From positions 13,114 through 77,113 of the forward strand of contig MNVE01000009.1 of the NCBI GenBank assembly GCA_001871475.1: a DNA stretch of 64,000 nucleotides. Direction: 5' to 3'. Position numbers and translations under genes: made by a program. Shown piece by piece: positions 17,852 through 62,323 of the stretch. This stretch comes from Candidatus Micrarchaeota archaeon CG1_02_47_40. GTDB taxonomy: Archaea > Micrarchaeota > Micrarchaeia > Anstonellales > CG1-02-47-40. Under the pieces are notes generated by a model. That model was not told the origin of the DNA. It worked only from the letters and a program-made list of their open reading frames with translations, and made no database searches. Position 1 is the stretch's first letter; every line of letters starts with the position of its first letter.

Positions 17852-19182
17852 GTGCCGTGCTCCCAAGCCGTTGAGTATTCTATTTGCTCTTTTGTCGGCT
17901 TTGGGAGAATTATTCCCTGCGAGAAGAGCGCCAATCTTGCAACCTCATCATCTATTCCGCAAGGCACGCTTATCACGCCTGCTTTCAGCTTCCCTTTATT
18001 CTTCACTAAGTATTCTGCCGAAAGCGCCTGCACTGCAAAGGAGCCATCCATTATTTCTATCGGATGCCCCTGCCCGGAAGGGCGCGCCAGATTCACCAAT
18101 CTTCCCTCTGAAAGGAGGTAAATGCATTTTCCATTTTTGAGAGTGAAGCACTCCAGATTCTCCTTGAGCACTTCTTTTCTTGCGCCCTTTTTTGTAATCC
18201 CCTCTATATCTATTTCGTTGTTGAAATGCCCCGCGTTGCAAACTATCGCGCCGTTTTTCATCTTTTCAATGTGTGAAACGTCTATCGCATTCTTGTTGCC
18301 TGTTGCGGTTATGAAAATGTCCCCTAATGAAGCCGCCTCATCAATTCCCATCACCCTAAAGCCGTCGTAGAGCGCTTCCAGCGCGCGGTGGCAGCCGGAT
18401 TCGCGCTTCTGTTGCGCGGAGGCGGGTTTGCATGCCCCGTCCTCCGTCCCGATTCCGCTTTCTCCAAGCCTGCTTCCTATCTCGCAAACTATTACGCTTG
18501 CGCCCATTCCCCGCAAACGTGAGGCAATTCCCCTTCCGCACCAGCCGTATCCGAGCACAACTGCGGTTTTTCCCGCAATCAGCTTGTTTGTTATTCTCAT
18601 TATCGCATCCAATGTGCTCTGCCCTGTGCCATATCTATTATCAAATAGATGTTTTGAGTATGCGTCATTCACGCTCATTACTGGAAATTTCAGCTTGCCT
18701 GCACTCTGCATCGCTTTCAGCCTTATCACCCCGGTGGTGGTTTCCTCGCACGCGCCTATTATTTGCGGGAGGAGTTCTTGCCGCTTGCCATGCAATAGGT
18801 TAATCAAATCGCATCCGTCATCTATCACTATTTGGGGCTTCTGCTCCAGCACTGCATTCAGACATCCATAATATTCTTCCTTTGACTGCCCGCTCCATGC
18901 AAATATTTCCATCTTCTTTGAGAGGGCGGCTGCAACAGAATCATCCGTTGTAAGCGGGTTGCAGGAAGAGGCGGCAATTTCTGCCCCGCCGGCTTGCAGA
19001 GTCTCAAGCAGTATGCCTGTTTTCTTCTCAAGATGCAATGCAACGGAGATGCGCACTCCTTTCAGGGGTTTTTCCTTCTCAAATCTTTCCCTTATTCCTG
19101 AAAGTATGGGCATGTTTTCCCTTGCCCAGGAAAGCTCTTTTTCTCCGGCAGCTGAAAGTGATATGTTTTTTACTTTGCTCAT
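17848..19182 (-). CDS. ahcY: S-adenosyl-L-homocysteine hydrolase, with an approximately 27-aa in-frame insertion in the NAD-binding domain
   Basis: Conserved SAHH blocks (NLLHGKRQ, GYGWCGRG). The usual EIDPI..ALQAAMEGY stretch is replaced by EIGSRLGESGIGTEDGACKPASAQQKRESGC-HRALEALYDGF. Confidence 0.85.
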   Translation of the reverse strand: MSKVKNISLSAAGEKELSWARENMPILSGIRERFEKEKPLKGVRISVALHLEKKTGILLETLQAGGAEIAASSCNPLTTDDSVAAALSKKMEIFAWSGQSKEEYYGCLNAVLEQKPQIVIDDGCDLINLLHGKRQELLPQIIGACEETTTGVIRLKAMQSAGKLKFPVMSVNDAYSKHLFDNRYGTGQSTLDAIMRITNKLIAGKTAVVLGYGWCGRGIASRLRGMGASVIVCEIGSRLGESGIGTEDGACKPASAQQKRESGCHRALEALYDGFRVMGIDEAASLGDIFITATGNKNAIDVSHIEKMKNGAIVCNAGHFNNEIDIEGITKKGARKEVLKENLECFTLKNGKCIYLLSEGRLVNLARPSGQGHPIEIMDGSFAVQALSAEYLVKNKGKLKAGVISVPCGIDDEVARLALFSQGIILPKPTKEQIEYSTAWEHGT

Positions 19183-20209: not shown

Positions 20210-20875
20210 ATGAAACCGACAAGCAGAGAAACCTACAGAATTATTCGCGCAATGCTGCGGATGAAAAGATTTACCCAATATGAGATAAGCAAAAAGGAAA
20301 AAATTACTTTCAGCCTCGTAAACCGCACGGTCAATTGGTTTGTTCAGCATGGATATGCTGCAAAACGGGAAGGGGAATATGAAATAACTGCGCCTGCTGC
20401 AATATTCGGGCTTTTCCCCCTCTACCGGAGCCTCAAGCCATACGCTGTTTTTGATGTGAATGTGAAAAGGGAGCGGGCTTTGGGGTTGGTAAAGAAAAGG
20501 GGGGCGCTGTGCCTGACCAGCGCGCTCTCATATCACGGCGACTATTATCGCGACCCGGCAGTTCATGCTTATCTTGATGATGAAAAAATTATTGAAGAAT
20601 TAAAACGAATGCCAAAGGGTTACTGCCGCATTGAACTTTACAGGGAAGATTTGAATAAGGATGATTTTGAGCAGACGAAGTCTGCGAAATACGTGTCCGA
20701 TGGAGGAAACCGGCAAAGGTTTCCGACAGACTTGTCCGAAGGACAAGCAGAAGGACACGGTATTGAGAAAGCAGGTAAGTATATCGTAACGAACAAAATT
20801 AGAACGATAATTGATTTGTTTTGCGCCAACAAGGCGTATGCGGCTGAAGGATTGATTAAAACGGAGTGGGCTTGA
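20210..20875 (+). CDS. AbiEi-like wHTH regulator (module 3); C-terminal region overlaps a hairpin repeat element
   Basis: N-terminal wHTH and a SALSYHGDYY AbiEi-type motif. Nucleotides 20669-20700 and the palindromes at 20704-20747 match the repeat family seen at 61741-61773. Confidence 0.4.
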   Translation: MKPTSRETYRIIRAMLRMKRFTQYEISKKEKITFSLVNRTVNWFVQHGYAAKREGEYEITAPAAIFGLFPLYRSLKPYAVFDVNVKRERALGLVKKRGALCLTSALSYHGDYYRDPAVHAYLDDEKIIEELKRMPKGYCRIELYREDLNKDDFEQTKSAKYVSDGGNRQRFPTDLSEGQAEGHGIEKAGKYIVTNKIRTIIDLFCANKAYAAEGLIKTEWA

Positions 20876-27511: not shown

Positions 27512-27515
27512 TAAA

Positions 27516-31731: not shown

Positions 31732-31749
31732 GGGTCGGACTTCTGCCCT
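31732..31749. promoter_or_regulatory. 18-bp motif GGGTCGGACTTCTGCCCT immediately upstream of a TATA-like box and the uvrB start; exact second copy at 36756-36773
   Basis: Exact 18-bp repeat read in the sequence. Both copies are followed by AT-rich TATA-like sequences (CTTATTAA / GGTTTAAAAG). Confidence 0.4.
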
Positions 31750-33751: not shown

Positions 33752-33838
33752 ATTGGCGGGTAAGTTGGAGAGGACGATGAAGGGGAAGCGATTGAAATGG
33801 AAAAAAACATAATTGTCCGCGGAGCGCGCGAGCATAAC

Positions 33839-33907
33839 CAACAGCGAAGCTGTTGGGCCGTGTCCGCAAGGACACGTAGTGCGAGAGCGTGATGAATATG
33901 CAAAATA
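33839..33907. repeat. double-hairpin element (CAACAGC-GAAG-GCTGTTG and CGTGTCC-GCAA-GGACACG) flanked by imperfect ~30-bp direct repeats of the uvrA 5' end
   Basis: 33809-33838 (ataattgtccgcggagcgcgcgagcataac) resembles 33908-33936 (the uvrA start). The two hairpins lie between. Confidence 0.5.
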
Positions 33908-36708
33908 TAGTAATACGCGGAGCGCGCGAGCATAATCTGAAAAATATTGATGTTGATATTCCAAGGGATTCCCTTACGGTAATTACCGGCATTTCGGGAA
34001 GCGGCAAAAGCACTCTTGCATTTGACACTATTTACGCGGAAGGGCAGAGAAGGTACGTTGAATCCCTCTCCACCTACGCAAGGCAGTTTCTTGGGATAAT
34101 GGGAAAGCCGGATGTGGATTCTATAGAAGGGCTTTCCCCTGCCATTTCCATAGAACAAAAAGTAAGCGGGAAAAACCCCCGCTCTACTGTTGGCACGATG
34201 ACGGAAATTTACGATTACATGAGGCTCTTGTGGGCAAGAGTAGGAAAGCCCCACTGCCCAAAATGCGGTATTGAAATCGCAAGCCAGACCCCGCAGGCGA
34301 TTGTGGAGAATATAATGAAGGGAAATGAAGGGCAGAAGCTGGAGATACTCTCCCCGATTGTGCAGGGGAAAAAGGGGGAGTATGCGAAATTGCTTGAGAG
34401 ATTATCTGAAAGGGGATTTTCCCGCGCAAGGGTGGATGGGGAGGCGTGCGAGCTATCGCAAGCCCCGCCTCTGAAAAAACAGCAGAAGCATACGATAGAA
34501 GTGCTTGTGGACAGGTTGGCAATAATTGAAGCGGAAAAGAGCAGAATTTTTGAAGCGGTGCAGACTGCGCTGAAGGAAAGCGGGGGGGCGGTGATTGCAA
34601 AAATCGGAAAGGAGGAAAAACTGTTCTCGCAGAAAAATGCCTGCCTTAACTGCGGCATTTCTGTAGGCGAATTGGAGCCTCGGATGTTTTCATTCAATTC
34701 CCCTTATGGCGCATGCGAGGAGTGCCATGGCTTGGGAGTTAAGATGGAATTTGTGCCGGAGTTGGTAATTCCGGATATGGGAAAATGCATTGCGGATGGT
34801 GGGGTTGTTCCCTGGCAGAGCGCTGTTGGAAGCTATAGGGGGAGGATGCTGGAGGCGCTTGGCAAAAAGCTTGGCTTTGATATGTACACTCCGCTTAAGG
34901 ATATTGGAGAAGAGAACCTGCGCATAATACTCTACGGAACGGAAGAGAAAGTAAAATACAAGTTCAAATCAAGGAATGGAAATTCTTCTTTTGAGTATGA
35001 AGGCGGGTTTGAGGGGGTTGTGCCAAATTTAGAGAGATTGCATAAAGAAACGAAATCCGAATGGAGAAAGGAGGAGATTGCAAAATTCATACGCGAGAGC
35101 ACCTGCCCTAAATGCTGCGGGAAAAGATTGATGGAAAATGTGCTTGCGGTGAAAATACAGGAGAAATCAATAATGGATGTTTGCGAGCTTCCAATAGGAA
35201 AAGCAGGGGAATTTTTCAAGGGGCTGAAAACAGAGGGAAACGAAGCGATTATTGCTTCACCTGTGCTGAAAGAGATAAGGGAAAGGCTTGGATTTTTGGT
35301 GAATGTGGGCGTGCCTTATCTTACCCTCTCGCGCATTTCAGGCACGCTTTCAGGGGGGGAGATGCAGAGAATACGGCTTGCCACGCAAATCGGCTCAATG
35401 CTTACGGGTGTGGTGTATGTGCTTGACGAACCCAGTATAGGCCTGCACCAAAAGGACAACGGGATGCTGATAAAGACGCTGAAATCCCTGCGGGATTTGG
35501 GAAATACTCTTTTAGTGGTGGAGCATGACGAGGAGACGATGAGAAATGCGGATTATGTGGTGGATATGGGGCCCGGTGCAGGGGAAGCGGGAGGGAGAGT
35601 AGTGGTTGCAGGGAACGTGAAGGATATTGAGAAATGTGAAGAGTCGCTGACTGGAAAATACCTTTCAGGAAAGCTGAAAATACCGATTCCACAGAAGAGG
35701 AGAAGGAGCAGTAAGTTTCTGATTATTCGCGGGTGCGGGGAAAACAACCTGAAAGACATTGATGTTTCCTTTCCCCTTGGGACTTTCACCTGCGTTACCG
35801 GCGTTTCCGGAAGCGGAAAAAGCACGCTTGTGAATGAAACTCTGCACAAGGGGCTTGCGCAGAAAATATACGGCTCAAGGGAAAGGGCGGGAAAGTTTGA
35901 GAAATTTGAGGGGCTGGATTATATTGATAAGGCAGTTTGCATAGACCAGAATCCGATTGGAAGGACGCCAAGAAGCAATCCCGCAACTTATACTGGTGTT
36001 TTTACTCCCATACGCGAGTTGTTTGCAAAAACTCCTTCTGCGCGCATAAAGGGATATTCTGCCGGGAAATTCTCCTTTAATGTTGAGGGGGGAAGATGCG
36101 AGAAATGCGAAGGGGCAGGAATGCAGAGAATAGAAATGAATTTCCTGCCTGATATATTCGTGCCCTGTGAGGAATGCCAGGGGAAACGGTATAATTCGGA
36201 GGCGCTTTCCATAACTTACAAGGAGAAGAATATTTCTGATGTTTTGAGTATGAGCGTGGATGAAGCTGCCGCGTTTTTTGAGAACATTCCGCAGATTAGG
36301 GAGAAGCTCAAAACTCTGCGGGATGTGGGGCTTGGGTATGTGAAGCTTGGGCAGAGCGCAACCACGCTTTCCGGAGGGGAGGCGCAGAGGGTGAAGCTCT
36401 CAAGCGAGCTTTCAAAGAGGGGGACGGGAAAAACAATTTACATTCTTGATGAGCCGACTGTGGGACTGCACTTTGCGGATGTTGCAAAACTGCTTGATGT
36501 GCTTGTCAGATTGGTGGAGAAGGAGAATACGGTGATTGTTATAGAGCATAATCTGGATGTGATTAAGTGCGCGGATTATGTTATTGATTTGGGTCCGGAA
36601 GGAGGGGAGGGAGGCGGGAGAGTAGTTGCGCTTGGGACTCCGGAAGAGGTTGCGCAAAACAATAAAAGCTGTACAGGAGAGTATCTGAAGGGAGTATTGA
36701 AGTCATGA
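33889..36708 (+). CDS. uvrA: excinuclease ABC subunit A
   Basis: Two ABC ATPase modules (GISGSGKST, GVSGSGKST), zinc-finger Cys clusters, 939 aa. Confidence 0.95.
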   Translation: MMNMQNIVIRGAREHNLKNIDVDIPRDSLTVITGISGSGKSTLAFDTIYAEGQRRYVESLSTYARQFLGIMGKPDVDSIEGLSPAISIEQKVSGKNPRSTVGTMTEIYDYMRLLWARVGKPHCPKCGIEIASQTPQAIVENIMKGNEGQKLEILSPIVQGKKGEYAKLLERLSERGFSRARVDGEACELSQAPPLKKQQKHTIEVLVDRLAIIEAEKSRIFEAVQTALKESGGAVIAKIGKEEKLFSQKNACLNCGISVGELEPRMFSFNSPYGACEECHGLGVKMEFVPELVIPDMGKCIADGGVVPWQSAVGSYRGRMLEALGKKLGFDMYTPLKDIGEENLRIILYGTEEKVKYKFKSRNGNSSFEYEGGFEGVVPNLERLHKETKSEWRKEEIAKFIRESTCPKCCGKRLMENVLAVKIQEKSIMDVCELPIGKAGEFFKGLKTEGNEAIIASPVLKEIRERLGFLVNVGVPYLTLSRISGTLSGGEMQRIRLATQIGSMLTGVVYVLDEPSIGLHQKDNGMLIKTLKSLRDLGNTLLVVEHDEETMRNADYVVDMGPGAGEAGGRVVVAGNVKDIEKCEESLTGKYLSGKLKIPIPQKRRRSSKFLIIRGCGENNLKDIDVSFPLGTFTCVTGVSGSGKSTLVNETLHKGLAQKIYGSRERAGKFEKFEGLDYIDKAVCIDQNPIGRTPRSNPATYTGVFTPIRELFAKTPSARIKGYSAGKFSFNVEGGRCEKCEGAGMQRIEMNFLPDIFVPCEECQGKRYNSEALSITYKEKNISDVLSMSVDEAAAFFENIPQIREKLKTLRDVGLGYVKLGQSATTLSGGEAQRVKLSSELSKRGTGKTIYILDEPTVGLHFADVAKLLDVLVRLVEKENTVIVIEHNLDVIKCADYVIDLGPEGGEGGGRVVALGTPEEVAQNNKSCTGEYLKGVLKS

Positions 36709-36839: not shown

Positions 36840-37916
36840 ATGAAAACTGAAATAAGAGTTATGTCGCTTTTCTCCGGCTGCGGAGGGATGGATTTGGGCT
36901 TCCTTTTGGCAGAGCATCCGCTTTACGAGTATAAAATGGTGTGGGCTAATGATTTTGAGAAATGGGCTTGCGCGACATACAAAAGAAATCTTAAGCATGA
37001 AATTGTCTGCGGAGATATTTGGAATGTTGACTTGGACAAAACGCCGCCGGCAGACGTAGTTATAGGGGGCTTCCCCTGCGAAGATTTCTCAATTCTTAGA
37101 GGCGATACGCGCCCAGGCTTTGAATCAAAAAGAGGCCTGCTTTATACTAAATTCGTTGAGGCAGTATCAAAAAAACAGCCTTTGTTTTTTGCAGCTGAAA
37201 ATGTCAGGGGGCTGTTAAGCGCACACGGAGGGTGGGCAATTAAAAAGATAAAAGAAGATTTTGAAAAAGTAGACCACATCGGGTATAATGTTGAATATAA
37301 ACTCATTAATCTCGCGGATTACGGCGTGCCTCAAAACAGGCAAAGAGTGATTATAGTAGGAATTAGAAATGATTTGAACCTTAAATTTGTCTTCCCGCAG
37401 CCGACGCATAAAGATAGGCATGTCAATACAAGAACTGCTCTTGAAGGAGTTGAAAAAGTTAAGTTAAATAATGAAAAATTGAGAATGCTTGATTCTACAA
37501 AAAAGAAAATTGAAAGAATTCCTCCGGGCGGAAACTATAAAGATTTAGCTGAATATTCAGGAAGAAACTGGATGAGCCTGATATACAAACGGCTGCATCC
37601 TGACGAACCTTCGCCTACAATAGTCGCCTGCGGAGGAGGCGGAACTTGGGGCTACCATTATTCTGAACCAAGACCTCTGACAAACAGGGAAAGGGCGCGG
37701 CTGCAGACATTCCCTGATAATTTTCAATTTTTAGGACCGGTGGGAGAGGTCAGAAAGCAGATAGGAAATGCTGTTCCGCCTTTAGGAATAAAACCTGTGG
37801 CGGAGCGGATTTTGGAAATGTTCAGCAGCTTGAAAGACGCTCAACATGAGGCTGCCTGCGCATTGGCTGCGGAAAAATGCCAAAAAATTGAGGCAGCTTC
37901 AGCTCTTGCCCGATAG
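36840..37916 (+). CDS. dcm: DNA (cytosine-5)-methyltransferase
   Basis: Motif I FSGCGGMDLGF, motif IV GGFPCEDFS and ENV motif VI. Confidence 0.9.
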   Translation: MKTEIRVMSLFSGCGGMDLGFLLAEHPLYEYKMVWANDFEKWACATYKRNLKHEIVCGDIWNVDLDKTPPADVVIGGFPCEDFSILRGDTRPGFESKRGLLYTKFVEAVSKKQPLFFAAENVRGLLSAHGGWAIKKIKEDFEKVDHIGYNVEYKLINLADYGVPQNRQRVIIVGIRNDLNLKFVFPQPTHKDRHVNTRTALEGVEKVKLNNEKLRMLDSTKKKIERIPPGGNYKDLAEYSGRNWMSLIYKRLHPDEPSPTIVACGGGGTWGYHYSEPRPLTNRERARLQTFPDNFQFLGPVGEVRKQIGNAVPPLGIKPVAERILEMFSSLKDAQHEAACALAAEKCQKIEAASALAR

Positions 37917-38294
37917 TCCAGCGCATGCCCGTTCAATATTCTTCTTGATTTGATGCTCCCAGATTATTTTGACTTTCCATCCATGTTTCTTCAGCGCTTG
38001 TATGCTCCGTTTGTCCCTCAATCTGTTGTTTCTTATTTTCGGCAGCCAGTAGCTCCTGTTTGTTTTCGGCTCTTTATAGCATTTTGGGCAGGCATGCCAG
38101 AAGCAGCCATGAAGGAAAACGGCAGTTTTGCTTTTAGGAAGAAGTATATCCGGACTGCCTCGCATTTTAGGATGCATTCTGCAGGTTATATTCCGCTGCT
38201 TCAAAAATCTTCGGACTAATCTTTCCTGAACCGTCCATCTGCTGCGGATTTTTGACATTGTCCTGCTGCGCTGGGTTTTGGTGAGATTATCCAT
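37899..38294 (-). CDS. vsr: very short patch repair endonuclease
   Basis: FLHGCFWHAC motif. 131 aa. Convergent with and overlapping the dcm 3' end. Confidence 0.85.
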   Translation of the reverse strand: MDNLTKTQRSRTMSKIRSRWTVQERLVRRFLKQRNITCRMHPKMRGSPDILLPKSKTAVFLHGCFWHACPKCYKEPKTNRSYWLPKIRNNRLRDKRSIQALKKHGWKVKIIWEHQIKKNIERACAGLSGKS

Positions 38295-39929: not shown

Positions 39930-41513
39930 ATGCGGCACTCTGCAAAAGACATTCCTTCCTCCCCTGGCGTCTATCTGATGAAAGGGAGCAGAGGGGAAAT
40001 AATCTACATAGGAAAGGCAAAGAACCTCCGCGAGAGGGTGGGAAGCTACTTTTCAGGTGAACAAGAGGGAAAGACTGCAAGGATGGTTGGAGAGATTAAA
40101 GATATTGATTTCATAGTCACGGATAATGAAACGGAAGCGCTCATCCTGGAAGCAAGCCTGATAAGGCAGAATAAGCCCAAGTATAATGTTGATTTGAGGG
40201 ATTCGGAGAGATTCACTTACATTATTTTCAGCAATGAAAGATTTGCAAGAATTTTTCTTGCGCGCAATCCAACAGCTTCAAGATGCGCGCGTGCAGGCAG
40301 TAAAGTTTTCGGTCCTTTCGCAAAAGGAAGCGCGCGCATACTCGTTGTGGACACCCTGCGCAAAATATTTGGGCTTCGCACCTGTAGAAATATGCCAAGG
40401 CGGGCATGTTTGCAATACCATATGGGAAACTGCACCGCGCCATGCGAGGGAAGAGTAGGGGAGAGAAAATATGCGGAGAAGGTAAAGGAAGTTGAGAAAG
40501 TGCTTTCCGGAAAAGGAGGGGGGTATGAGGGATTGCTGGAAAAGCTGAAGGGAGAGATGGAGTATGAAGCAGGAAAAAGGAATTTTGAAAGGGCTGCGAA
40601 ACTGCGGGACAGCCTGCGTGTTCTTGAAGGATTGCAGGAGAGGCAGAAAATAGAAAGGGTTGATGGAAAAGATGAGGATTATTTGTATTATGCCCGGAAT
40701 GCCAAAGGCGCCGTTTCATTGCAGATGTTCCGCGTGATTGGGGGAGTGATAAAGGAAAGAGAGAAGCACTCCTTTGAGGCGGAAAAAGGAAAGGAATTGG
40801 AGGAGTTTATGCTTGCGCATTATGCCGAAGGAAACATTCCGCAGAAGATTTACGTGCAGGAGGAATTTGGGGGAAGGAAGGCACTTGAAGGGTATCTTGG
40901 AGGGATTGCAGGCAGCAGAGTCGCAATAACTGTTCCGCAAAAAGGGGATAAGAAAAAACTGCTGGAATTGCTCGCAAAGAACATGGAAAGTGAGATACCT
41001 GTTGCACTCGTAAAACTCCGGCGCGCACTTTCCCTGCGTGAAATTCCGAGGGTTATAGAGTGCTTTGACGTTTCAAACCTTGGGAAGGAAGGAATTGTAG
41101 GAGCGATGGTGCGCTTTGTTGATGGGAAGCCGGACAAGGGGAATTACAGGAAATTTAAGATAAAGGAAGTGAAGGGGCAGGATGATTTTGCCTCTATGAA
41201 GGAAATAGTGTTCAGGAGGTATTTGAGATTGGGCAGGGAGAATGCAGAAATGCCGAATTTGGTGCTCGTGGATGGGGGGGTTGGACAGCTAAACAGCGCA
41301 ATGAAGGCGCTTTCAGAGCTGGGAGTGGATTTGGAGTGTATTTCACTTGCAAAGGAAGAGGAAAAAGTCTACTCGCCGAAATTTTCACAGCCCATCGCCC
41401 TGCCGAAAACGGATGAGGGGCTCAAAATACTCATGCACGCGCGGGATGAGGCGCACAGGTTTGCGATTTCATATCAAAGGAAGGTAAGGGGCAGAAGTTC
41501 GGGAATTGCTTAA
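39930..41513 (+). CDS. uvrC: excinuclease ABC subunit C
   Basis: N-terminal GIY-YIG (PGVYLMKG...IYIGKAKNLRERV), UVR domain, and the C-terminal endonuclease V/HhH region. Confidence 0.9.
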   Translation: MRHSAKDIPSSPGVYLMKGSRGEIIYIGKAKNLRERVGSYFSGEQEGKTARMVGEIKDIDFIVTDNETEALILEASLIRQNKPKYNVDLRDSERFTYIIFSNERFARIFLARNPTASRCARAGSKVFGPFAKGSARILVVDTLRKIFGLRTCRNMPRRACLQYHMGNCTAPCEGRVGERKYAEKVKEVEKVLSGKGGGYEGLLEKLKGEMEYEAGKRNFERAAKLRDSLRVLEGLQERQKIERVDGKDEDYLYYARNAKGAVSLQMFRVIGGVIKEREKHSFEAEKGKELEEFMLAHYAEGNIPQKIYVQEEFGGRKALEGYLGGIAGSRVAITVPQKGDKKKLLELLAKNMESEIPVALVKLRRALSLREIPRVIECFDVSNLGKEGIVGAMVRFVDGKPDKGNYRKFKIKEVKGQDDFASMKEIVFRRYLRLGRENAEMPNLVLVDGGVGQLNSAMKALSELGVDLECISLAKEEEKVYSPKFSQPIALPKTDEGLKILMHARDEAHRFAISYQRKVRGRSSGIA

Positions 41514-41739
41514 AAGATTTTCTCCTTCTAATTCCTCGCATGAGCGACCAGAGTTATTTTCAGGAGCTAGCCAAAGCCGGAAGCGGAAAGCCGCAAAGCA
41601 AAGTCGGGAGATTGGAAGGGATGGGAATGAGCGAACGGGGAGTTTATGAAGAGCTTGTGAAGTTCGGCATTCCAAAATTGGATGCGGGGATAATAACAGA
41701 CTGCCTGAACATGGAGAAGGCGTGCATGTGGCAGAATGA

Positions 41740-42125
41740 TGAGGATGGTTTGCAACGAGGGCGTTCTGCCAGCTCGTTGCAAAATTTTGAAAAAGCGCAG
41801 GGTAACCGTACAAGGGGCGCTTTTTCAAATGTTTCGCTGGAAGCGGTTGGGAAAGTGAATGAGTTTGTGAAGGGGAAGGGGCTTGGCATGAAGGTTGAGG
41901 CATCGGCTGGAAGGTATGGGAAGGTAGTTTGGGAAGTGAGGAAACCGCAAGGGTTGACACCGAAGGTGTCAAATTTTGACGCAGAAGCGTCAAATGTTTC
42001 CGAACGATTTGAAAGTTCCGAAGAACTTTCAAAATTTTGAAACGCAAAGCGTTTCAAACGTCTTGACGCGAAACCGACAGCTTTGCTGTCGGAACTTGCG
42101 CAGAGCGCAAGTAGAGCGTCAAGCG
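41740..42125. repeat. hairpin-dense non-coding region (at least 8 consecutive perfect palindromes, many with GAAG/AAA loops); candidate structured ncRNA or cluster of mini-repeat elements
   Basis: Palindromes TTGCAACGAG...CTCGTTGCAA, TTGACACC-GAAG-GTGTCAA, GTCAAATTTTGAC, GACGC-AGAA-GCGTC, TTGAAAGTTC-CGAAG-AACTTTCAA, TTTCAAAATTTTGAAA, TTGAAACGC-AAA-GCGTTTCAA, CCGACAGC-TTTG-CTGTCGG and CTTGCGC-AGA-GCGCAAG, all read directly. Confidence 0.55.
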
Positions 42126-42226
42126 AAGTGAAAAAGGAGTAGGAGATGTTACCCCGCACTGAAAAGTATGCGCGTTGCTTTTTCTTTTATTGCTTCTGCC
42201 GCTTCCCTGCCGTTTGCGTCTAATCT

Positions 42227-42281
42227 ATTGAAATCTCACTTTCAATTTTTGCCTAATTATTGAAAGCAGACTTTCAATAAT
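42227..42281. promoter_or_regulatory. two related palindromes (ATTGAAA-TCTCAC-TTTCAAT; ATTATTGAAAG-CAGA-CTTTCAATAAT) upstream of the AAA_14 ATPase gene; putative operator pair
   Basis: Read directly from the sequence, 20-75 bp upstream of ATG 42302. Confidence 0.35.
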
Positions 42282-44190: not shown

Positions 44191-44994
44191 ATGAAGAGAA
44201 TTTGCATTCCTGTATTTGACTGCAAAATGCTCAAAGAGGCGGCAGAAAAAACTGATTTGGTAGAGGTTAGGCTGGATAGGTTTGGGAAAAGGGAGAGGGA
44301 AAAACTCGCGGAAATAGCAAAAAAAATTAAAGCAAAACTCATCCTCACGATAAGGAAAAAAAGCGAGGGCGGGATTGAGCGGACGGGAGTCCGCGAAAGA
44401 TTTGACTCCCAAGAGTCAAACTGCCCGAAGCGGAGCAAGGGCGGGATTGAGCGGACGGGAGTCCGCGAAAGATTTGACTCCCAAGAGTCAAACTGCCCGA
44501 AGCGGAGCAAGGGCAGGAAGTTTAAAGGGAATGAACGCCAGAGGCTGGCGCTTTTTTTGGAAATGCTTAAAGCAGCAAGATTCGCATACGCCGATATCGA
44601 ACTTTCAAGCGGCAGGAAATTCATTGAAAAGGTAAGAAAAAAAGCAAAAGAGGCAGGCGCAAAGCTCATTCTCTCAAAGCACTATTTTGCCGGCACTCCA
44701 AGCAGGAAGGAGTTTTTGCAAACATATGCAAAAATGAAGAAGCTTGGCGCGGATATTTGTAAAATAGTAGGAACTGCAAGAAGTGAAAGAGACTGCGGGA
44801 ATGCAATGGAAGCGCTGAAAAAGGCAAAAAAAGACACTGCCATCTTCTTCTGCATGGGAAAGAAAGGAAAAAATACAAGAAGCGAGTGCTTAAAATTCGG
44901 CGCTCCTTTCACTTATGCCTCTTTAAAGAAAGGAAAGGAGAGTGCGAAAGGACAGTATGACTTTGGGAAGATGACAAAGCTACTCGAAGGATAA
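44191..44994 (+). CDS. aroD: 3-dehydroquinate dehydratase type I, carrying an in-frame 2x24-aa tandem insertion after the conserved EGG motif
   Basis: ICIPV...VEVRLD, LILTIRKKSEGG, ADIELS, KLILSKHYF and CKIVGTA blocks. The insert is GIERTGVRERFDSQESNCPKRSKG repeated twice. Confidence 0.7.
   Translation: MKRICIPVFDCKMLKEAAEKTDLVEVRLDRFGKREREKLAEIAKKIKAKLILTIRKKSEGGIERTGVRERFDSQESNCPKRSKGGIERTGVRERFDSQESNCPKRSKGRKFKGNERQRLALFLEMLKAARFAYADIELSSGRKFIEKVRKKAKEAGAKLILSKHYFAGTPSRKEFLQTYAKMKKLGADICKIVGTARSERDCGNAMEALKKAKKDTAIFFCMGKKGKNTRSECLKFGAPFTYASLKKGKESAKGQYDFGKMTKLLEG
44367..44510. repeat. perfect 72-bp tandem duplication (2 copies) inside aroD, internally palindromic (GAGTC...GACTC-CCAA-GAGTC)
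   Basis: The identical 72-bp unit gggcgggattgagcggacgggagtccgcgaaagatttgactcccaagagtcaaactgcccgaagcggagcaa occurs twice consecutively. Confidence 0.8.
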
Positions 44995-55787: not shown

Positions 55788-55933
55788 GCAGGGGTGCCAG
55801 AGTTTGGTCAATTGGGCAGGACTTAAGAGCGCACTGGCGCGATGAAATCCTGTGGACTAGCTCCTTCGCAGGTTCTCGCAAATAATGCCAATATCGGGGC
55901 ATTGCTGGCGGCCTAAAAATCCTGCCCCCTGCA
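55788..55933 (+). tRNA. tRNA-Leu(UAA) with two introns (about 19 nt at the canonical 37/38 site and about 41 nt in the T-loop); mature length about 86 nt
   Basis: Manual fold: acceptor GCAGGGG/CCCCUGC; D-stem CCA/UGG; anticodon stem CAGGA/UCCUG; loop CUUAAGA (anticodon UAA); long variable arm GGA-CUAGC-UCC; T-stem GCAGG/CCUGC; T-loop UUC[intron]AAAU; discriminator A followed by TTTT. Confidence 0.7.
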
Positions 55934-55973
55934 TTTTGCTTGCAAAATGCGGGGCCTTGTCCGCAAGGACAAG
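55931..55973 (+). terminator. tRNA trailer: oligo-T plus two hairpins (GCATTTTGC-TT-GCAAAATGC and CTTGTCC-GCAA-GGACAAG, a GNRA tetraloop)
   Basis: Palindromes read directly from the sequence. Archaeal tRNA transcription terminates at T-runs. Confidence 0.35.
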
Positions 55974-56071
55974 TGTCCCCTGCATTCATTTATTTTTCTT
56001 CTTTTCCTTCCTCAAAACCAAAGGTTTATATGCTTTGTATTACGAAACTATCGTTTGGAGATAGTATTGTT

Positions 56072-56878
56072 ATGCAAAAGATAAAACGTTTCGGAGAGAT
56101 GGAATTGCGGCTCATGTTCACGCTTGAACAGCGCGAGAATCAGCTGTTCAGCATTGCGGATGCCAAGCGCATACTCGGCAGTTCAGACGCTTCCGTTTGG
56201 AATGTGCTCAAGCGCCTGATGAAAAAAAGAAGGGTTATCCGCCTGCAGAGGGGCGCCTATCTTTTTGCCCCGCTGCGCAGCGGCGAGGAGGGCTTATGGT
56301 CGGAAGATGCGTTTCGGGTGGTCCCCATGCTCGTAGGAAAGAGAAGATTTTACATCGGTTTTGTTTCAGCTATGAATCACTGGGGGATGACGGAGCAGCT
56401 GCCCATAGTGGTTTATGTTGCCCTGAAACGCCAGAAAAGAGGCATTGATGCGGTGCAGTCCCGGTTTGTTTTCGTCAAAAAAAAGCGGCTTGGGAAGTTT
56501 TTGCAGATTTCTCTAGGCGATACGAAGGTTAATATTTCCACGGTTGAGCAGACGATACTGGACGGGCTGTCCTTCCCGGAATACTGCCTTGGAATCGCCG
56601 GAATTGCCAAGGCAATCTGGTTTGTGCAAAAAGATATTGAGTGGCAAAAGCTTCTTTCCCTTGCAAAAAGCGAAAAAAACGCCGTGCGGAGGCGTTTGGG
56701 ATATCTTCTTGAGATTCTTGGTTTCAGAAGGCAGGCAAAGGAGTTGGAAGGTGTTTTTTCCGGCTATTTCTGGCTGGACCCGTCAAATCTGAGGGATGAC
56801 TTTGAATATTCAAAAAAATGGGGATTGAAGATAAATCTGAAAAAACGGGATTTGCTTGAATTCATGGAGGTGCACTGA
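56072..56878 (+). CDS. AbiEi-like antitoxin/regulator (TA module 4)
   Basis: wHTH (SIADAKRILGSSDASVWNVLKRLMKKRRVIRLQRGAY) and a FVSAMNHWGMTEQLP AbiEi motif. Start set at an internal Met. Confidence 0.55.
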   Translation: MQKIKRFGEMELRLMFTLEQRENQLFSIADAKRILGSSDASVWNVLKRLMKKRRVIRLQRGAYLFAPLRSGEEGLWSEDAFRVVPMLVGKRRFYIGFVSAMNHWGMTEQLPIVVYVALKRQKRGIDAVQSRFVFVKKKRLGKFLQISLGDTKVNISTVEQTILDGLSFPEYCLGIAGIAKAIWFVQKDIEWQKLLSLAKSEKNAVRRRLGYLLEILGFRRQAKELEGVFSGYFWLDPSNLRDDFEYSKKWGLKINLKKRDLLEFMEVH

Positions 56879-57628
56879 ATGAACGCCGAAGAATTGAACA
56901 GGAAGGCGGTATCCGCCGGCATTCCGCGTGCAATAATGGAAAAGGATTACGTGCTTTCGGTTGTGCTCTTCCATATTTCAAAATCCGTCCTTGCTGAAAG
57001 GATGCTTTTCAAGGGAGGCACTGCACTCAAGAAGGTTTATTTTCCCGATGCAAGATTTTCCGAAGATTTGGATTTTGCTGCACGGGCATCTGATGAGAGG
57101 ACGATAATGGATGAACTGAAGTCGCTTTTTGAAGACAGAGAACTCAAAGGCATCAGATTCGCATTCCTGGAAAAAGAAAGGTCGCACGCGGGCTTGAGGG
57201 CCGCCCTGAAATTTTCCTTCATTCTCGGGCATACGCAGAGAATCCGCTTTGATTTCAGTTTCCGCGAAAACGTCGCGTCAAAGCCGGAGAAAAGGGCGAT
57301 TGTGGATGAATATAATCTTGGCAATGCGGAATTGCTTGTGATTCCGCTTGAGGAGCTGTTTGCGGAAAAAATTAACGCGCTTTTTGGAAGAATTGCCGTC
57401 AGAGATTTGTATGATGTCTGGTTTCTGTTCAAACGCGGCATAAAGGCGGATAAGCTGATGATAAAAAGGAAGTTTGCCTATTACAATGAAGAATACGAAC
57501 CCTCAAAACTGAAAGGAAGGATAAACTTGTTCAGAAAAGACTGGAAGAGAGATTTGGCTCAATTCATGAATGACGTTCCGGATTTTGATGGAATTGCGGA
57601 TGAAACTGTGAAATTTCTTGAAGAATAA
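56879..57628 (+). CDS. AbiEii-like nucleotidyltransferase toxin (DUF1814)
   Basis: FKGGTALKKVYFPDARFSEDLDFA signature. It starts 1 bp after the upstream stop. Confidence 0.7.
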   Translation: MNAEELNRKAVSAGIPRAIMEKDYVLSVVLFHISKSVLAERMLFKGGTALKKVYFPDARFSEDLDFAARASDERTIMDELKSLFEDRELKGIRFAFLEKERSHAGLRAALKFSFILGHTQRIRFDFSFRENVASKPEKRAIVDEYNLGNAELLVIPLEELFAEKINALFGRIAVRDLYDVWFLFKRGIKADKLMIKRKFAYYNEEYEPSKLKGRINLFRKDWKRDLAQFMNDVPDFDGIADETVKFLEE

Positions 57629-59178: not shown

Positions 59179-59904
59179 TTAAAAATCCATTTTGATTTTC
59201 TCTTTAGCGGAATATAATTCAGGCAAGTGCTTTTCGCTTATTCTGAAACCAGCCCCATGGTCCCTAACTGATCCATTTTCTTTAATGTGCATGCGAAATT
59301 CCCAAACAATCACGCCATCAAGCAGCAGCTGTTCAAAATTCTCTTCGCTTAAATCGGAAAGGAAATAAGCTTCAGTATAATGGAATTGCTCTTTGCGTCT
59401 TTTCTTTCGTGTTTCGGCAAACACTATCAGCAGATTTTGGGATAATTTTTCTTTTATCTTGCCCATTAATTCTTTGATTTCAAAATAGCAAACGGCCCCA
59501 TTTTTTTTATGAATTATGTTAATCCTGTTGAGGGGCTTATTAATTTCCAATTTGAGCCTGTGCGTATTAAAATCAACGGCAGTAATTGTCACCTTTAATC
59601 CTTGTCTGCCTTTTGCGTCAGAATAGCCATATTTTCTTATTATTTTTTCGGCAGATAATGGATTCCAATGAGGCGATTTTGTTATCAAAGTCACTCTAGA
59701 ACTGGCAGTTGCTCGCTGGGATTTCAACTCTATTATTCGTCCTTCAAACTGAAAATCATTGGAAACGTTGTTTTCAGGTATGCCGAATAGCTCTTCAAGA
59801 GTTTTGCCTATGCCCGTGTTTCCTGAACGAAGCGATTCTATAAAACCCAATTTATAGATTCCCTTGAGCTTTTTTCTGAAATTTATAACTGGAAGCTTGC
59901 CCAT
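59179..59904 (-). CDS. MvaI/BcnI-family type IIP restriction endonuclease
   Basis: The C-terminal block IVFAETRKKRRKEQFHYTEAYFL...DGVIVWEF...RDHGAGFRI matches remembered BcnI/MvaI conserved blocks. Adjacent to a convergently arranged methyltransferase. Confidence 0.55.
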   Translation of the reverse strand: MGKLPVINFRKKLKGIYKLGFIESLRSGNTGIGKTLEELFGIPENNVSNDFQFEGRIIELKSQRATASSRVTLITKSPHWNPLSAEKIIRKYGYSDAKGRQGLKVTITAVDFNTHRLKLEINKPLNRINIIHKKNGAVCYFEIKELMGKIKEKLSQNLLIVFAETRKKRRKEQFHYTEAYFLSDLSEENFEQLLLDGVIVWEFRMHIKENGSVRDHGAGFRISEKHLPELYSAKEKIKMDF

Positions 59905-59946
59905 AGCGGGGCTTGCTCAATACAGAGTTATAAACCGCACACGCGC

Positions 59947-61272
59947 CTATTTGCGCACCACAATAATACTCTCTTTGTCCATAGTCCTCCCAACAATTCC
60001 CGCTTCATTTGTGGGGCTGTTGATTAGGGGAATTGTTTTATATGGAATATTTCTGCCGTTGTTCTCAATAGTTTCAAAGCCGATTTCCTCGCATAATTCC
60101 GAGGTTATGGTGCTTGAAGGGATAGATGTTTCTTTAACTGTCCTATTGCCGATTACTATGCCGGCAACCCCGTCTTTACGTAAAACTCGGTGCATTTGCT
60201 TGTAAACGTCATTTAGGTCTACAAAAAACCATGCTACTTCTTCGGCACGCTGAATATCCTTGCTAGCGATCGATTTAAGCACTTTATCAAGCGATTTAGA
60301 TTTTAAGGAGTAGTCGTAATTCTTCCTTAATGAGCCGCCTAAACTGGCTTTATCTAATTTAGTAATTTCCTCGTAACTTCCAATCTCATCGCAGTCTAGC
60401 CCTAACCATTGAAGAGAAAGCCTGGAAAATTGACCGTATGCTACTGTTGTTCTGCTGTCGCCATAAGGAGGGGAGGTGACTATAAGGTCAATGCTATTGT
60501 CTTTGATTATATTTTTTGTATATCTTGCGTCGGCTTTGTAAACACGGCAATGGCTTTGTAAATTGGTGGATTGGTTAAATTCCAGCAGACAGGACATTGA
60601 TTTTTTGAGCGCTTCTTTGAATATTTTCATAGTATTTGGATTGTGTTTTTCCAGGAGAGTTGGAGAATAACGGTATAACTTAAATTCGCCTGAGCGTGTG
60701 TTTGAAGCTTTGCGGACAGTTAATGAAAATGGAACTAAAAGAAAATTTCGTATTTCTTTATCCTCAACTTTAAAGATTTGCTCCCGAATTATCGCTAAAT
60801 CTGATATTATTTGGGGTTTAAACCAGAATTCTATATTCCCGAAATCTGGAGGAGATGGCTTTCGTTTATTTGACGTATCAAACTTGTTAAATTGAGAATT
60901 TAATTTTTCAAGAAACTCAAAAACTTGTTTCTTTAAATAATTGGTTTCAATTGGCGTTGTTTTCACTTTGGAGAGCAGGATAGCCAGGGGATTGAGGTCT
61001 GTTCCAATAGCCTGCCTTTCTGACAGCACTGCTTCCACAAGAACCGTGCCGCTGCCGCACATTGGGTCATAAACAAGCTCATCTGTTTGAGAGTATTTTT
61101 TTATCAGCTTTTCGGCTATCTGCGGCACCATCCTGGCAGGATAAGTATGCATGCCGTGAGTATTATGCCGTGTATCTGCTGTTTCAAAATCCCAATCTTC
61201 GGTCTTTTGGATTTGAACAACTGCCTGCCCGGAGGAATACATCTCAAGAGTTGAATCTTTCATGTTTTCCAT
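59947..61272 (-). CDS. N4-cytosine/N6-adenine DNA methyltransferase
   Basis: Motif I VYDPMCGSGT and motif IV TSPPYGD (SPPY). Confidence 0.8.
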   Translation of the reverse strand: MENMKDSTLEMYSSGQAVVQIQKTEDWDFETADTRHNTHGMHTYPARMVPQIAEKLIKKYSQTDELVYDPMCGSGTVLVEAVLSERQAIGTDLNPLAILLSKVKTTPIETNYLKKQVFEFLEKLNSQFNKFDTSNKRKPSPPDFGNIEFWFKPQIISDLAIIREQIFKVEDKEIRNFLLVPFSLTVRKASNTRSGEFKLYRYSPTLLEKHNPNTMKIFKEALKKSMSCLLEFNQSTNLQSHCRVYKADARYTKNIIKDNSIDLIVTSPPYGDSRTTVAYGQFSRLSLQWLGLDCDEIGSYEEITKLDKASLGGSLRKNYDYSLKSKSLDKVLKSIASKDIQRAEEVAWFFVDLNDVYKQMHRVLRKDGVAGIVIGNRTVKETSIPSSTITSELCEEIGFETIENNGRNIPYKTIPLINSPTNEAGIVGRTMDKESIIVVRK

Positions 61273-61361: not shown

Positions 61362-61640
61362 ATGGCAATTAATTGGAACCATTATGGATTTGTAAAGGCA
61401 AGCAAATACCGAAGTAAAATCGTGGAGGCTTTGGCTGCCGCCCCAAAAACTCCCTCGCAAATCGCAAACGAGATTAAGCTTTTCAAAACCCATACCAGTA
61501 CTGTTTTGAAAGAACTTGTAAATGAAAAGATAGTGGAATGCCTGACGCCAAACTTAAGACGCGGGAAGATATTTGGCTTAACCGCGAATGGAAAGGCAGT
61601 TGCTTCTCAAATGCAAGGCAAAATATCAAAAACAAGATGA
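61362..61640 (+). CDS. small winged-helix regulator, candidate controller (C) protein of the R-M system
   Basis: 92 aa with a wHTH (PKTPSQIANEIKLFKTHTSTVLKELVNEKIV). Divergent from the MTase. Confidence 0.4.
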   Translation: MAINWNHYGFVKASKYRSKIVEALAAAPKTPSQIANEIKLFKTHTSTVLKELVNEKIVECLTPNLRRGKIFGLTANGKAVASQMQGKISKTR

Positions 61641-61644
61641 TGAT

Positions 61645-61800
61645 TTGCAACGAGGGCTCTCGGCGGGCAAGCCCGCCGTATCCGCCAGCTCGTTGCAAAA
61701 TTTTGAAAATCGCTCCTCCCTGCGCGAAGCGCGGGGTATTGAGCAGACGAAACCTGCGAAATACGTATCCGAAGGATACGGTATCCGCGTAAAGCGATTT
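61645..61800. repeat. hairpin-rich repeat element (module A TTGCAACGAG..CTCGTTGCAAAATTTTGAAAA; module B GAGCAGACGAA..CTGCGAAATACGT.TCCGA.GGA) related to 41750-41798 and 20669-20700
   Basis: Shared modules identified by eye. Nested palindromes CGGCGGG-CAAG-CCCGCCG, CGCG-AAG-CGCG, GTATCC-GAAG-GATAC. Confidence 0.55.
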
Positions 61801-61852
61801 TCAAATGAGCTAATTCTTCCCTTCGCTCTTCCCGCAAAAATAAGCGCGCTTC

Positions 61853-62323
61853 TCACCTCATCGGCGTTATTATCACTATATCCGCAGTATTTCTCAATGC
61901 AACGGAAAAGCCCGGCTCCGCGCCTATTACAATGGTTTCCTTTCCAAGCTCTTTTGCTTTTATCAAAACAGGACGGAAATCATTATCCCTTGTCATTAAG
62001 GCAATCTTGTTGATTGCCGGATTGAAAACCTGCTGCATCGCTTCAACCGCCATTGTCACATCCACGTCTCCTGTTGTGATTATCGGCTCAAATCCCTGGT
62101 TGGTCATTGCCTCTATCAGCTTGTCGGAAGCATACTGGTCAAGGAATACCTTTGCCACTTTTATCTGCCCGTGCTTCTCCACTTCCCTTTTCACGGCAAT
62201 CAAATCCGGCTTCATCTCCCGTCTTATGGTGTTGGGGCCGTCTATGAGAAGAGCTATGTTCCCCTCTACCTTCTTCTGCTTTATCATTTTCTTGATGGAT
62301 TCAATCAAATTCACGTTTGGCAT
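61853..62323 (-). CDS. NYN/LabA-like (PIN-related) domain protein
   Basis: [10 protein letters not shown] start typical of NYN domains, with conserved acidic residues. Confidence 0.55.

What the first reader, a model, noticed from the sequence alone, without database searches (positions are those of the whole stretch)
61645..61800. Modular repeat family shared between 41750-41798, 61645-61800 and 20669-20750
Module A (hairpin TTGCAACGAG/CTCGTTGCAA followed by AATTTTGAAAA) occurs at 41750 and 61645 with different loop contents; the second has a nested CGGCGGG..CCCGCCG hairpin. Module B (GAGCAGACGAA-NN-CTGCGAAATACGT-N-TCCGA-N-GGA, about 32/36 identical) occurs at 20669 and 61741, each followed by a GTCC/GTATCC-GAAG-GGAC/GATAC hairpin. 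This points to a composite, shuffling mini-element family.
Basis: seen in the sequence. Interest (0 to 1): 0.55.

Follow-up and report, generated by a model that had tools for sequence, protein, structure and literature searches.

The report
Nested hairpin insertion modules in archaeal genes
A groundwater DPANN archaeon (Micrarchaeota) carries a small family of short hairpin-forming DNA modules that copy themselves into one another, into spacers and, in frame, into ordinary genes; this is an archaeal counterpart of the Rickettsia palindromic elements.

Summary
Module A is a two-hairpin element at 41749-41829 and 61644-61805. Module B is at 20668-20763 and 61740-61784. The shared stretches (26/26 nt and 31/34 nt) are never matched in shuffles. 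A third A copy lies on another metagenome contig. It is 99% identical to the 61644 copy but lacks exactly the 45 nt of module B. It sits in frame inside trpE, in the opposite orientation. Module B is the core of a 31-codon insertion in a winged-helix gene. A diverged relative forms a 2 x 24-codon tandem insertion in aroD, and an unrelated hairpin adds 18 codons to SAH hydrolase. All indels are multiples of three, and the elements are depleted in stop codons. Junctions carry short direct repeats. No Rfam family, bulge-helix-bulge (BHB) intron motif, ribozyme core or nearby transposase was found. A syntenic relative from another genus has no copies. Best reading: selfish, non-autonomous palindromic modules that are tolerated as peptide insertions. 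They are RPE-like and nest as organellar short palindromic repeats do. The copying mechanism is inferred, not shown. This is a new variant of a known kind, of moderate interest.

The parts
61644..61805 (+). Composite element A_61 (162 nt), lying between the convergent genes 61362-61640 (+, winged-helix (wHTH)) and 61853-62323 (-, NYN). P1 stem is 61644-61654/61689-61699, with the nested hairpin at 61661-61678. P2 stem is 61702-61714/61793-61805. P2 contains the hairpin 61718-61736 and module B.
   Evidence: (MFE -79.5 kcal/mol, z -5.1). The same element is 100% identical on independent contigs L002, L004, L024 and L025.
61740..61784 (+). Module B nested in the apical part of P2 of A_61. It is exactly 45 nt and is flanked by the direct repeat GGTAT (61735-61739 and 61780-61784). 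It has a head hairpin GCAG..CUGC between UGA and GAAA, followed by the hairpin CGTATCC-GAA-GGATACG.
   Evidence: It is absent from the otherwise 99%-identical copy on L003, whose empty site reads GGGGTAT|CCGCG. It is 31/34 nt identical to 20667-20700.
41749..41829 (+). Element A_41 (81 nt = 27 codons). It has the same P1 stem with a 5-nt apical loop, the same linker, and a 13-bp P2 whose inner 5 bp differ. It lies in frame in the orphan ORF 41540-42040.
   Evidence: (I6). The ORF flanks have coding-like codon usage in this frame (+0.28 and +0.54 bits per codon), whereas the element itself scores -0.44.
20657..20749 (+). A 93-nt (31-codon) in-frame insertion in the wHTH/AbiEi-like gene 20201-20875. 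Module B homology covers 20667-20700 plus 20750-20763. Two further hairpins are nested at 20705-20724 and 20732-20746.
   Evidence: All eight aligned homologues, including one at 56% identity, lack these 31 residues. The region folds with z -4.9. The 3' arm GGACACGGTATTGAG encodes GHGIE, which aligns with native residues of the homologues.
44374..44517 (+). A perfect tandem of 2 x 72 nt (2 x 24 codons), in frame in aroD (44191-44994), directly after the R..EGG motif. Each unit has a B-like head (ATTGAGC-GGAC-GGGA-GTCC-GCGAAA), then the hairpin TTTGACTC-CCAA-GAGTCAAA, then a tail. GGGCGGG/GGGCAGG direct repeats lie at the junctions.
   Evidence: (the PDB homologue alignment jumps from query residue 62 to 107).
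18409..18462 (-). A 54-nt (18-codon) in-frame insertion in S-adenosylhomocysteine hydrolase (17848-19182). It forms GC-rich hairpins (GGAGG-A-CGGG..CCCG-CCTCC and CGCGC..GCGCG) and is flanked by imperfect direct repeats AGCGGAATC/AGCGCGAATC. It shows the same behaviour as modules A and B but has no sequence match to either.
   Evidence: It is absent from eight Micrarchaeota homologues, including one at 72% identity. In the AlphaFold model, residues 236-267 have pLDDT below 50 and form a loop between a Rossmann strand and a helix.
41954..42122 (+). A chain of six perfect hairpins with GAA, AGAA, CGAA or AAA loops. Several have the same TTTGA..TCAAA foot as P2 and the aroD hairpin. The CAAAATTTTGAAA joint seen in module A recurs at 42027-42044.
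   Evidence: (MFE -89 kcal/mol, z -9.3), with the 18-nt match reported.

Best explanation
These are copies of a small family of short, non-autonomous, hairpin-forming (palindromic) DNA modules in a groundwater Micrarchaeota (DPANN archaeon) genome.

Shown:
- The modules are real repeats.
- They occur in spacers and inside unrelated protein genes, in either orientation.
- One module can sit inside the apical region of another.
- Every length difference is a multiple of three, and the modules lack stop codons in three to five of six frames. Host reading frames therefore stay open, and the module would be translated as an extra peptide loop.
- Junctions carry short direct repeats.

Inferred:
- They are selfish or neutral passengers rather than functional RNAs.
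- They spread by a DNA-level copy-and-paste process that uses a few bases of homology at the target. I think this is template switching or gap repair on single-stranded hairpin DNA, rather than a dedicated transposase with fixed ends.
- Single-stranded hairpin tips are favoured entry points, which would produce the nesting.
- Selection then removes every insertion that shifts the frame or introduces a stop.
For: Repeats:
- The shared stretches exceed chance.
- An extra copy, L003, differs from A_61 by one SNP and the exact 45-nt module B.

In-frame insertions, judged against homologues:
- trpE, about 40 aa.
- The wHTH gene, 31 aa.
- aroD, 48 aa.
- SAH hydrolase, 18 aa, modelled as a disordered loop.
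- A_41 sits in an ORF whose flanks, but not the element itself, have coding-like codon usage.

Length and stop codons:
- All four indels between A copies are multiples of three: 21, 18, 45 and 3 nt. Whole-element lengths are 81, 117 and 162 nt.
- Stop-free frames exceed shuffles: A_61 3/6 (P 0.0125), A_41 4/6 (P 0.02), B_20 5/6 (P 0.001).

Nucleic-acid level rather than protein level:
- The B head is conserved in aroD with a compensatory A-T to G-C change, but the reading frame shifts after its loop. So the conservation is not at the protein level.

Mechanism:
- Direct repeats at junctions are AATGA, GGTAT, TTGAG, GGGCGGG and about 9 nt.
- The 3' arm of module B is native coding sequence of the 20201 gene family. 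This fits copying of patches rather than a fixed-end transposon.
- In-frame tandem duplications recur in the same lineage, in aroD, at the uvrA start and in aroK.
- There are 25 perfect hairpins in the window against about 4 in shuffles.
- Pfam finds no transposase, reverse transcriptase or integrase in the 64 kb.
- A syntenic locus from a related genus has no copies.

Precedents: RPEs (PMC10969869) and nested organellar palindromes (PMC2670323).
Against: - Only three A copies and two B copies (plus the aroD relative) could be found, so the family is small in the data reachable here.
- A search of the large protein database with the translated modules returned only the window's own ORF and one chimera.
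- No presence/absence polymorphism at an orthologous site was seen. All contigs covering the 61.6-kb locus are identical.
- Translation of the insertions is not demonstrated.
- The perfect stems, the conserved UGAGC..GCGAAA motif and the rebuilt P2 stem could equally reflect selection on an RNA or DNA structure.
- A 5-nt repeat at three junctions would also fit a transposase encoded elsewhere in the genome.
Confidence: 0.6

Rival explanations
1. Classical MITE or PATE. The modules would be deletion derivatives or hitch-hikers of an insertion sequence encoded elsewhere in the genome, for example an IS200/IS605-type element that recognises subterminal hairpins. They would be moved in trans by its transposase.
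For: Module A has a hairpin at each end and weak terminal inverted repeats: GATTTGCAA on the left, and CATTTGAAA as the reverse complement of the right end. All three A copies follow RATGR. Three junction pairs have 5-nt direct repeats: AATGA, GGTAT and TTGAG.
Against: No transposase was found in 64 kb plus about 20 kb of flanks. Junction repeats vary from 3 to 9 nt, and reach 21 nt or more at uvrA. The two B copies cannot be given the same ends, and one end of B is native host coding sequence. At 40-45 nt, module B is shorter than known MITEs.
Confidence: 0.2
2. Functional structured RNA. The modules would be RNA motifs, such as protein-binding sites, stabilisers or small RNAs, maintained for their fold. 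The UGAGC-hairpin-GCGAAA head would form tandem sheared G-A pairs, a possible binding site for L7Ae-like proteins.
For: Folding is very stable (z from -5 to -9). Stems are conserved while loops vary. The P2 stem is rebuilt from different bases. The B head shows a compensatory change. A_61 lies in a convergent 3' spacer.
Against: There is no Rfam match at gathering score, and only chance-level hits at E up to 10. Copies lie inside coding sequence, in both orientations relative to the host gene. They are absent from the syntenic locus of a related genus. Selection on an RNA fold alone does not predict lengths in multiples of three or stop-codon depletion. C-GAA-G loops are also hallmark stable DNA mini-hairpins (my own knowledge of d(GCGAAGC)).
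Confidence: 0.12
3. Archaeal introns in protein-coding genes, removed from the mRNA by the tRNA-splicing endonuclease at bulge-helix-bulge (BHB) motifs. ARMAN-type archaea are known to have a broad-specificity endonuclease (my own knowledge).
For: The insertions interrupt conserved enzymes, in aroD next to a catalytic motif. They are highly structured.
Against: A lenient BHB scan found 0 motifs at aroD, SAH hydrolase, B_20 and A_61, and 1 at trpE. The background is 13.5 per kb. The two ends of each module do not pair with each other. Splicing would not require lengths in multiples of three or open frames. A perfect tandem duplication of an intron would be odd.
Confidence: 0.03
4. Remnants of paralogous coding sequence. 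The shared stretches would be conserved protein segments, or pieces of a multi-copy gene family (wHTH/AbiEi-like), rather than mobile modules.
For: The 3' arm of module B is native sequence of the 20201 gene family. The start of the insertion, FEQTKSAKYVS, resembles the native IEKAGKYIVT. The window holds several AbiEi/AbiEii-like gene pairs.
Against: Module A lies in trpE in the opposite orientation and a different frame. The B head in aroD is read in a shifted frame after its loop. Identity is at the DNA level and is confined to the hairpins. The flanks are unrelated.
Confidence: 0.04

Closest known systems
Rickettsia palindromic elements (RPEs)
   Same: Both are short, dispersed palindromic repeats inserted in frame into unrelated metabolic genes and into spacers, keeping ORFs open and adding a peptide segment. 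No transposase is attached (PMC10969869).
   Different: The host is an archaeon. There is no sequence similarity to RPEs. The modules are smaller (40-160 nt) and modular. Modules nest inside one another's hairpin tips. Very few copies were found here, whereas tens are known per Rickettsia genome.
Short palindromic repeats of green-algal organelle genomes (e.g. Volvox carteri mtDNA and ptDNA)
   Same: Both are hairpins of 11-80 nt with recurrent 3-5 nt loop motifs. One palindrome is often inserted into another. The spreading mechanism is unknown (PMC2670323).
   Different: The organellar repeats are almost entirely non-coding, AT-rich and extremely abundant. The modules here enter coding sequence in multiples of three, have GAA- or GNRA-like loops, and are few.
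Prokaryotic MITEs, and IS200/IS605-derived PATEs
   Same: All are small non-autonomous repeats with hairpin-forming ends, found in archaea as well as bacteria. Short direct repeats or a preferred flanking motif occur at the junctions.
   Different: No partner IS was found. Ends are not fixed, junction repeat length varies, and host sequence is carried along.
Coding palindromes in Nematomorpha mitochondrial genes
   Same: Perfect inverted repeats lie inside functional protein-coding genes and are translated (PMC6649704).
   Different: There, both arms encode conserved native protein regions. Here, the hairpins are extra sequence absent from homologues and shared between unrelated loci.

Membership tests
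RPE-like in-frame palindromic elements (by behaviour) | Dispersed repeat family with DNA-level identity between unrelated loci | tested here: met
   A: 26/26 and 18/19 nt shared by 41749 and 61644, and 99% identity between 61644 and L003. B: 31/34 nt identical.
RPE-like in-frame palindromic elements (by behaviour) | Inserted in frame in unrelated protein-coding genes, absent from homologues, with the ORF kept open | tested here: met
   Seen in trpE, the wHTH gene, aroD and SAH hydrolase.
RPE-like in-frame palindromic elements (by behaviour) | The insert is translated and lies on the protein surface | tested here: inconclusive
   The AlphaFold model puts the SAH-hydrolase insert in a loop with pLDDT below 50. 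No expression or proteome data were available.
Rickettsia RPE families proper | Sequence homology to an RPE family, in a Rickettsiales host | tested here: not met
   The host is Micrarchaeota. No similar DNA was found in the plasmid or phage records, and there were no exact matches in the GTDB or viral collections. No direct comparison with RPE sequences was run.
MITE | Terminal inverted repeats and a target-site duplication of fixed length | tested here: inconclusive
   The terminal inverted repeat is weak (GATTTGCAA / CATTTGAAA). A 5-nt repeat is seen at three junction pairs, but repeats of 3-4, 7 and about 9 nt occur at others.
MITE | A related autonomous IS with matching ends in the same genome | not testable with these tools
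   None was found in the window or the fetched flanks. The whole genome could not be fetched.
IS200/IS605-type PATE | Subterminal hairpins at both ends and insertion 3' of a fixed tetra- or pentanucleotide | tested here: inconclusive
   P1 and P2 are terminal hairpins. The left flanks are GATGA, AATGA and GATGG. With n = 3 this cannot be judged.
REP/BIME | Extragenic location, and a GTAG or CGTC tag at the hairpin foot | tested here: not met
   Copies lie inside genes. The hairpin feet are TTTGA/TCAAA or TTTGCAA.
Archaeal BHB intron | A bulge-helix-bulge motif (3-nt bulges either side of a 4-bp helix) spanning both splice sites | tested here: not met
   Four of the five insertions tested have none and trpE has one, against a background of 13.5 per kb for the lenient definition used.
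Any Rfam RNA family | A covariance-model score at or above the gathering threshold | tested here: not met
   There are 0 hits in the whole window, and only E >= 0.1 noise at the elements.
Hammerhead ribozyme (considered for the three-way junction of the aroD unit) | The CUGANGA and GAAA cores and a UH cleavage site around three helices | tested here: not met
   The junction strand reads GAUUGA, not CUGANGA. There is no Rfam hit.
C/D box sRNA or K-turn | Box C (RUGAUGA) paired with box D (CUGA), or a 3-nt bulge next to tandem G-A pairs with a flanking canonical stem | tested here: not met
   GAUGAUGA precedes A_61, but no D box follows. The B head has tandem G-A pairs but no 3-nt bulge plus C-stem arrangement (read directly). 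There is no Rfam hit.

The most novel reading that the evidence does not exclude
The modules are products of a so far undescribed process in DPANN archaea. Hairpin-forming single-stranded DNA would be copied into hairpin tips and into genes through a few bases of homology. This would build nested palindromes in whole-codon steps, carry bits of host coding sequence along, and so seed new peptide segments in essential enzymes. The agent would be either a new enzyme that recognises the TTTGA..TCAAA or UGAGC..GCGAAA hairpin feet, or an unusual replication or repair habit of these reduced genomes.
Probability: 0.25. Interest if true: 0.7.

Novelty: new variant of a known kind. Interest (0 to 1): 0.5.

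Why it matters
In-frame palindromic passengers are best known from Rickettsia (RPEs); my paper searches turned up none reported from archaea.

Finding the same behaviour in a DPANN archaeon would show that reduced, host-dependent genomes in two domains tolerate, and perhaps generate, this kind of selfish DNA. The additional features here are nesting and modularity.

It would also offer a concrete route by which new loops arise in conserved enzymes.

It matters in practice too. The repeats break metagenome assemblies (a contig ends inside the 26-mer) and create chimeric contigs and chimeric predicted proteins.

Tried and rejected
- Rfam on the whole window at gathering score, and on two elements at E up to 10: nothing meaningful.
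- tRNA/tmRNA scan: none.
- Exact module patterns in viral contigs: none. The module A 21-mer in GTDB genomes: none.
- Looser B-head motif in viral contigs: 21 hits, none forming the hairpin, so they are chance matches.
- Plasmid and phage records: no match.
- The second GTDB scan, run with UvrC, returned only bacterial UvrC at 40% identity or less. It gave no close relative.
- Protein-database search with the four open translations of the module: only the window's own ORF and one chimera.
- BHB-intron scan: negative.
- Hammerhead core and K-turn or C/D readings were rejected by reading the sequence directly.
- 10085-10180 (two perfect hairpins, 96 nt) was considered as a family member. It has stops in all six frames and no sequence match, so it was left out.
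- L001 from the metagenome scan is an AT-rich chance match.
- L048/P0002 joins A_41 to A_61. I read it as an assembly chimera, because the 20 kb between them holds eIF2-alpha, primase and GINS genes.

Full report
**1. The observation**

- TTGCAACGAG and its complement occur exactly, only at 41750/41773 and 61645/61689.
- The 21-mer CTCGTTGCAAAATTTTGAAAA occurs twice, against 0.02 expected. The shared block is 26/26 nt.
- The module B pattern occurs exactly at 20669 and 61741 and never in shuffles. Identity is 31/34 nt.
- All three regions fold much better than shuffles: z = -5.1, -2.7 and -4.9.

It has 13 perfect base pairs in both A copies.
- At 61644 it reads TTTGAAAATCGCT/AGCGATTTTCAAA.
- At 41749 it reads TTTGAAAAAGCGC/GCGCTTTTTCAAA.

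Module A is therefore P1, a short linker, then P2. It spans 41749-41829 (81 nt) and 61644-61805 (162 nt). Module B lies inside P2 of the longer copy.

**2. Source organism**

The window is archaeal: it encodes aIF5A, S24e, eIF2-alpha, primase and GINS.
- The nearest named homologues of its SAH hydrolase, and of the trpE on L003, are Micrarchaeota: Ca. Anstonellales, Ca. Gugararchaeum and "Micrarchaeota archaeon".
- The same DNA is on groundwater metagenome contigs and in two MAGs, GCA_002762955.1 and GCA_002499375.1.
- No close relative was reachable in the GTDB representatives.

**3. A third copy, and what it shows**

This copy is 117 nt and 99% identical to the 61644 copy. It lacks exactly 45 nt, reading GGGGTAT|CCGCG where the window has GGGGTAT-[TGAGCAG...ACGGTAT]-CCGCG.
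- Module B is therefore a separable insertion into the tip region of P2, flanked by the 5-nt repeat GGTAT.
- The L003 copy lies inside a trpE/pabB-type gene on the opposite strand, with the frame open.
- Eight Micrarchaeota TrpE homologues lack these roughly 40 residues. A PDB alignment resumes directly after them.
- The junctions carry AATGA on both sides.

**4. In-frame insertions in the window**

- Module B region: residues 153-183 of the gene at 20201-20875 (a winged-helix, AbiEi-like protein). They are absent from all eight aligned homologues, including one at 56% identity.
- aroD (44191-44994): a perfect 2 x 72-nt tandem directly after the R..EGG motif. Homologues align from residue 62 straight to residue 107. 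Its unit begins with ATTGAGC-GGAC-GGGA-GTCC-GCGAAA, a relative of the B head TTGAGC-AGAC-GAA-GTCT-GCGAAA with a compensatory A-T to G-C change. After the loop the reading frame is shifted by one base, so the conservation is not at the protein level.
- SAH hydrolase: an 18-codon hairpin-forming insert, absent from relatives at 72% identity and below. AlphaFold leaves it as a low-confidence loop.
- A_41 lies in frame in an orphan ORF. The ORF flanks have coding-like codon usage, and the element does not.
- A_61 lies between convergent genes.

**5. Frame compatibility**

- The alignment of the three A copies has four indels, of 21, 18, 45 and 3 nt.
- Element lengths are 81, 117 and 162 nt. The insertions are 45, 54, 72 and 93 nt.
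- Stop-free frames exceed shuffles: A_61 3/6 (P 0.0125), A_41 4/6 (P 0.02), B_20 5/6 (P 0.001).

Inside genes, selection alone would enforce multiples of three. The same pattern in the nested and intergenic copies suggests the lineage has mostly lived in coding sequence.

**6. Other readings tested**

- Known RNA family: no Rfam family matches.
- Intron: a lenient bulge-helix-bulge (BHB) scan finds none at four of the five insertions tested and one at trpE, against 13.5 per kb of background.
- Ribozyme or K-turn: the aroD three-way junction lacks the hammerhead core, and the B head lacks a K-turn bulge (read from the sequence).
- Nearby mobilising enzyme: no transposase, integrase or reverse transcriptase is in the window.
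- Conservation in a relative: a syntenic locus from a related genus (L022, SAH hydrolase 72% identical) has none of the modules and lacks the SAH-hydrolase insert.
- Viruses, plasmids, phages: no viral, plasmid or phage relatives exist in the collections.

**7. Clues to the mechanism (inference)**

- Junction repeats vary: AATGA, GGTAT, TTGAG, GGGCGGG and about 9 nt.
- At the uvrA start, a hairpin pair sits between two copies of the first 14 codons, of which 21 nt are identical.
- The 3' arm of module B (GGACACGGTATTGAG, encoding GHGIE) is native sequence of the 20201 gene family. The piece copied into A_61 therefore carried host sequence with it.
- The two B copies cannot be given common ends.
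- In-frame tandem duplications recur in aroD and in aroK on L003.
- The window has 25 perfect hairpins of 8 bp or more, against about 4 in shuffles. Many share a TTTGA..TCAAA foot and GAA-type loops.

Together this fits copying of hairpin patches through short homology (template switching or gap repair) better than a fixed-end transposon. A transposase encoded elsewhere is not excluded.

**8. Comparison and verdict**

The behaviour matches Rickettsia palindromic elements (in-frame passengers; PMC10969869). The nesting matches organellar short palindromic repeats (PMC2670323). Translated coding palindromes have a precedent in Nematomorpha mitochondria (PMC6649704). I found no description of this in archaea in the paper searches.

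The family is low-copy in the reachable data, and its translation and mobility are not demonstrated. I rate it a new variant of a known kind, with interest 0.5.

Noticed in passing
window 33797-33939: The uvrA start is duplicated. MEKNIIVRGAREHN is followed by two hairpins (CCAACAGC-GAA-GCTGTTGG at 33838-33856 and GTGTCC-GCAA-GGACAC at 33860-33875) and a stop codon. The real start, MNMQNIVIRGAREHNLKN, comes next. The two copies share 21 identical nt. It looks like a hairpin insertion accompanied by a long target duplication.
   Followed up: partly
window 41954-42122 and 42226-42281: The spacer between uvrC and the AAA_14 ATPase gene holds a chain of six perfect hairpins (z -9.3). Two more TTGAAAG..CTTTCAA hairpins lie just upstream of the ATPase gene. 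The 166-codon ORF 41540-42040 runs through much of the chain and has coding-like codon usage.
   Followed up: partly
window 10085-10180: Two adjacent perfect hairpins (12 bp and 13 bp, 96 nt in all) lie between two minus-strand genes. Stops occur in all six frames and there is no sequence match to modules A or B. Function unknown.
   Followed up: partly
window 8030-8054, 31722-31745, 55896-55935: A recurring GGGGTCGGAATCCTGCCC-like motif lies at or near gene ends. The copy near 55.9 kb is followed by the hairpins GCATTTTG-CTTG-CAAAATGC and TTGTCC-GCAA-GGACAA. It may be a 3'-end or terminator motif.
   Followed up: no
L003 4640-4810: In the aroE-aroK fusion gene, the shikimate-kinase P-loop segment (KNIV.IGM.GSGK) is present three times in tandem, in units of about 60 nt and in frame. 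This is a direct duplication, not a hairpin.
   Followed up: no
L048 (ENA ERZ27293400 k141_1330731); L026 position 11369: One short contig joins window 41031-41793 to 61681-62262 through the shared 29 nt, which yields the chimeric protein P0002. Another MAG contig ends exactly inside the 26-mer. The repeat therefore breaks and mis-joins assemblies. A real deletion is unlikely because essential genes lie between the two copies.
   Followed up: yes
window 20201-23857: The genes at 20201, 20876 and 21629-23857 are missing from the syntenic locus of the related genus (L022), so they look like an inserted island. The 742-aa protein among them has about six NTQGDATW.AF.SFS.LLSNPNF repeats.
   Followed up: no
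window 4789-6497, 26903-28298, 55940-57628, 36840-38294, 59179-61272: The window is dense in defence-type genes. It has three clear AbiEi/AbiEii-type pairs (plus the 20201/20876 pair), a Dcm methylase with a Vsr endonuclease, and an MvaI/BcnI-type restriction enzyme with its methylase.
   Followed up: no
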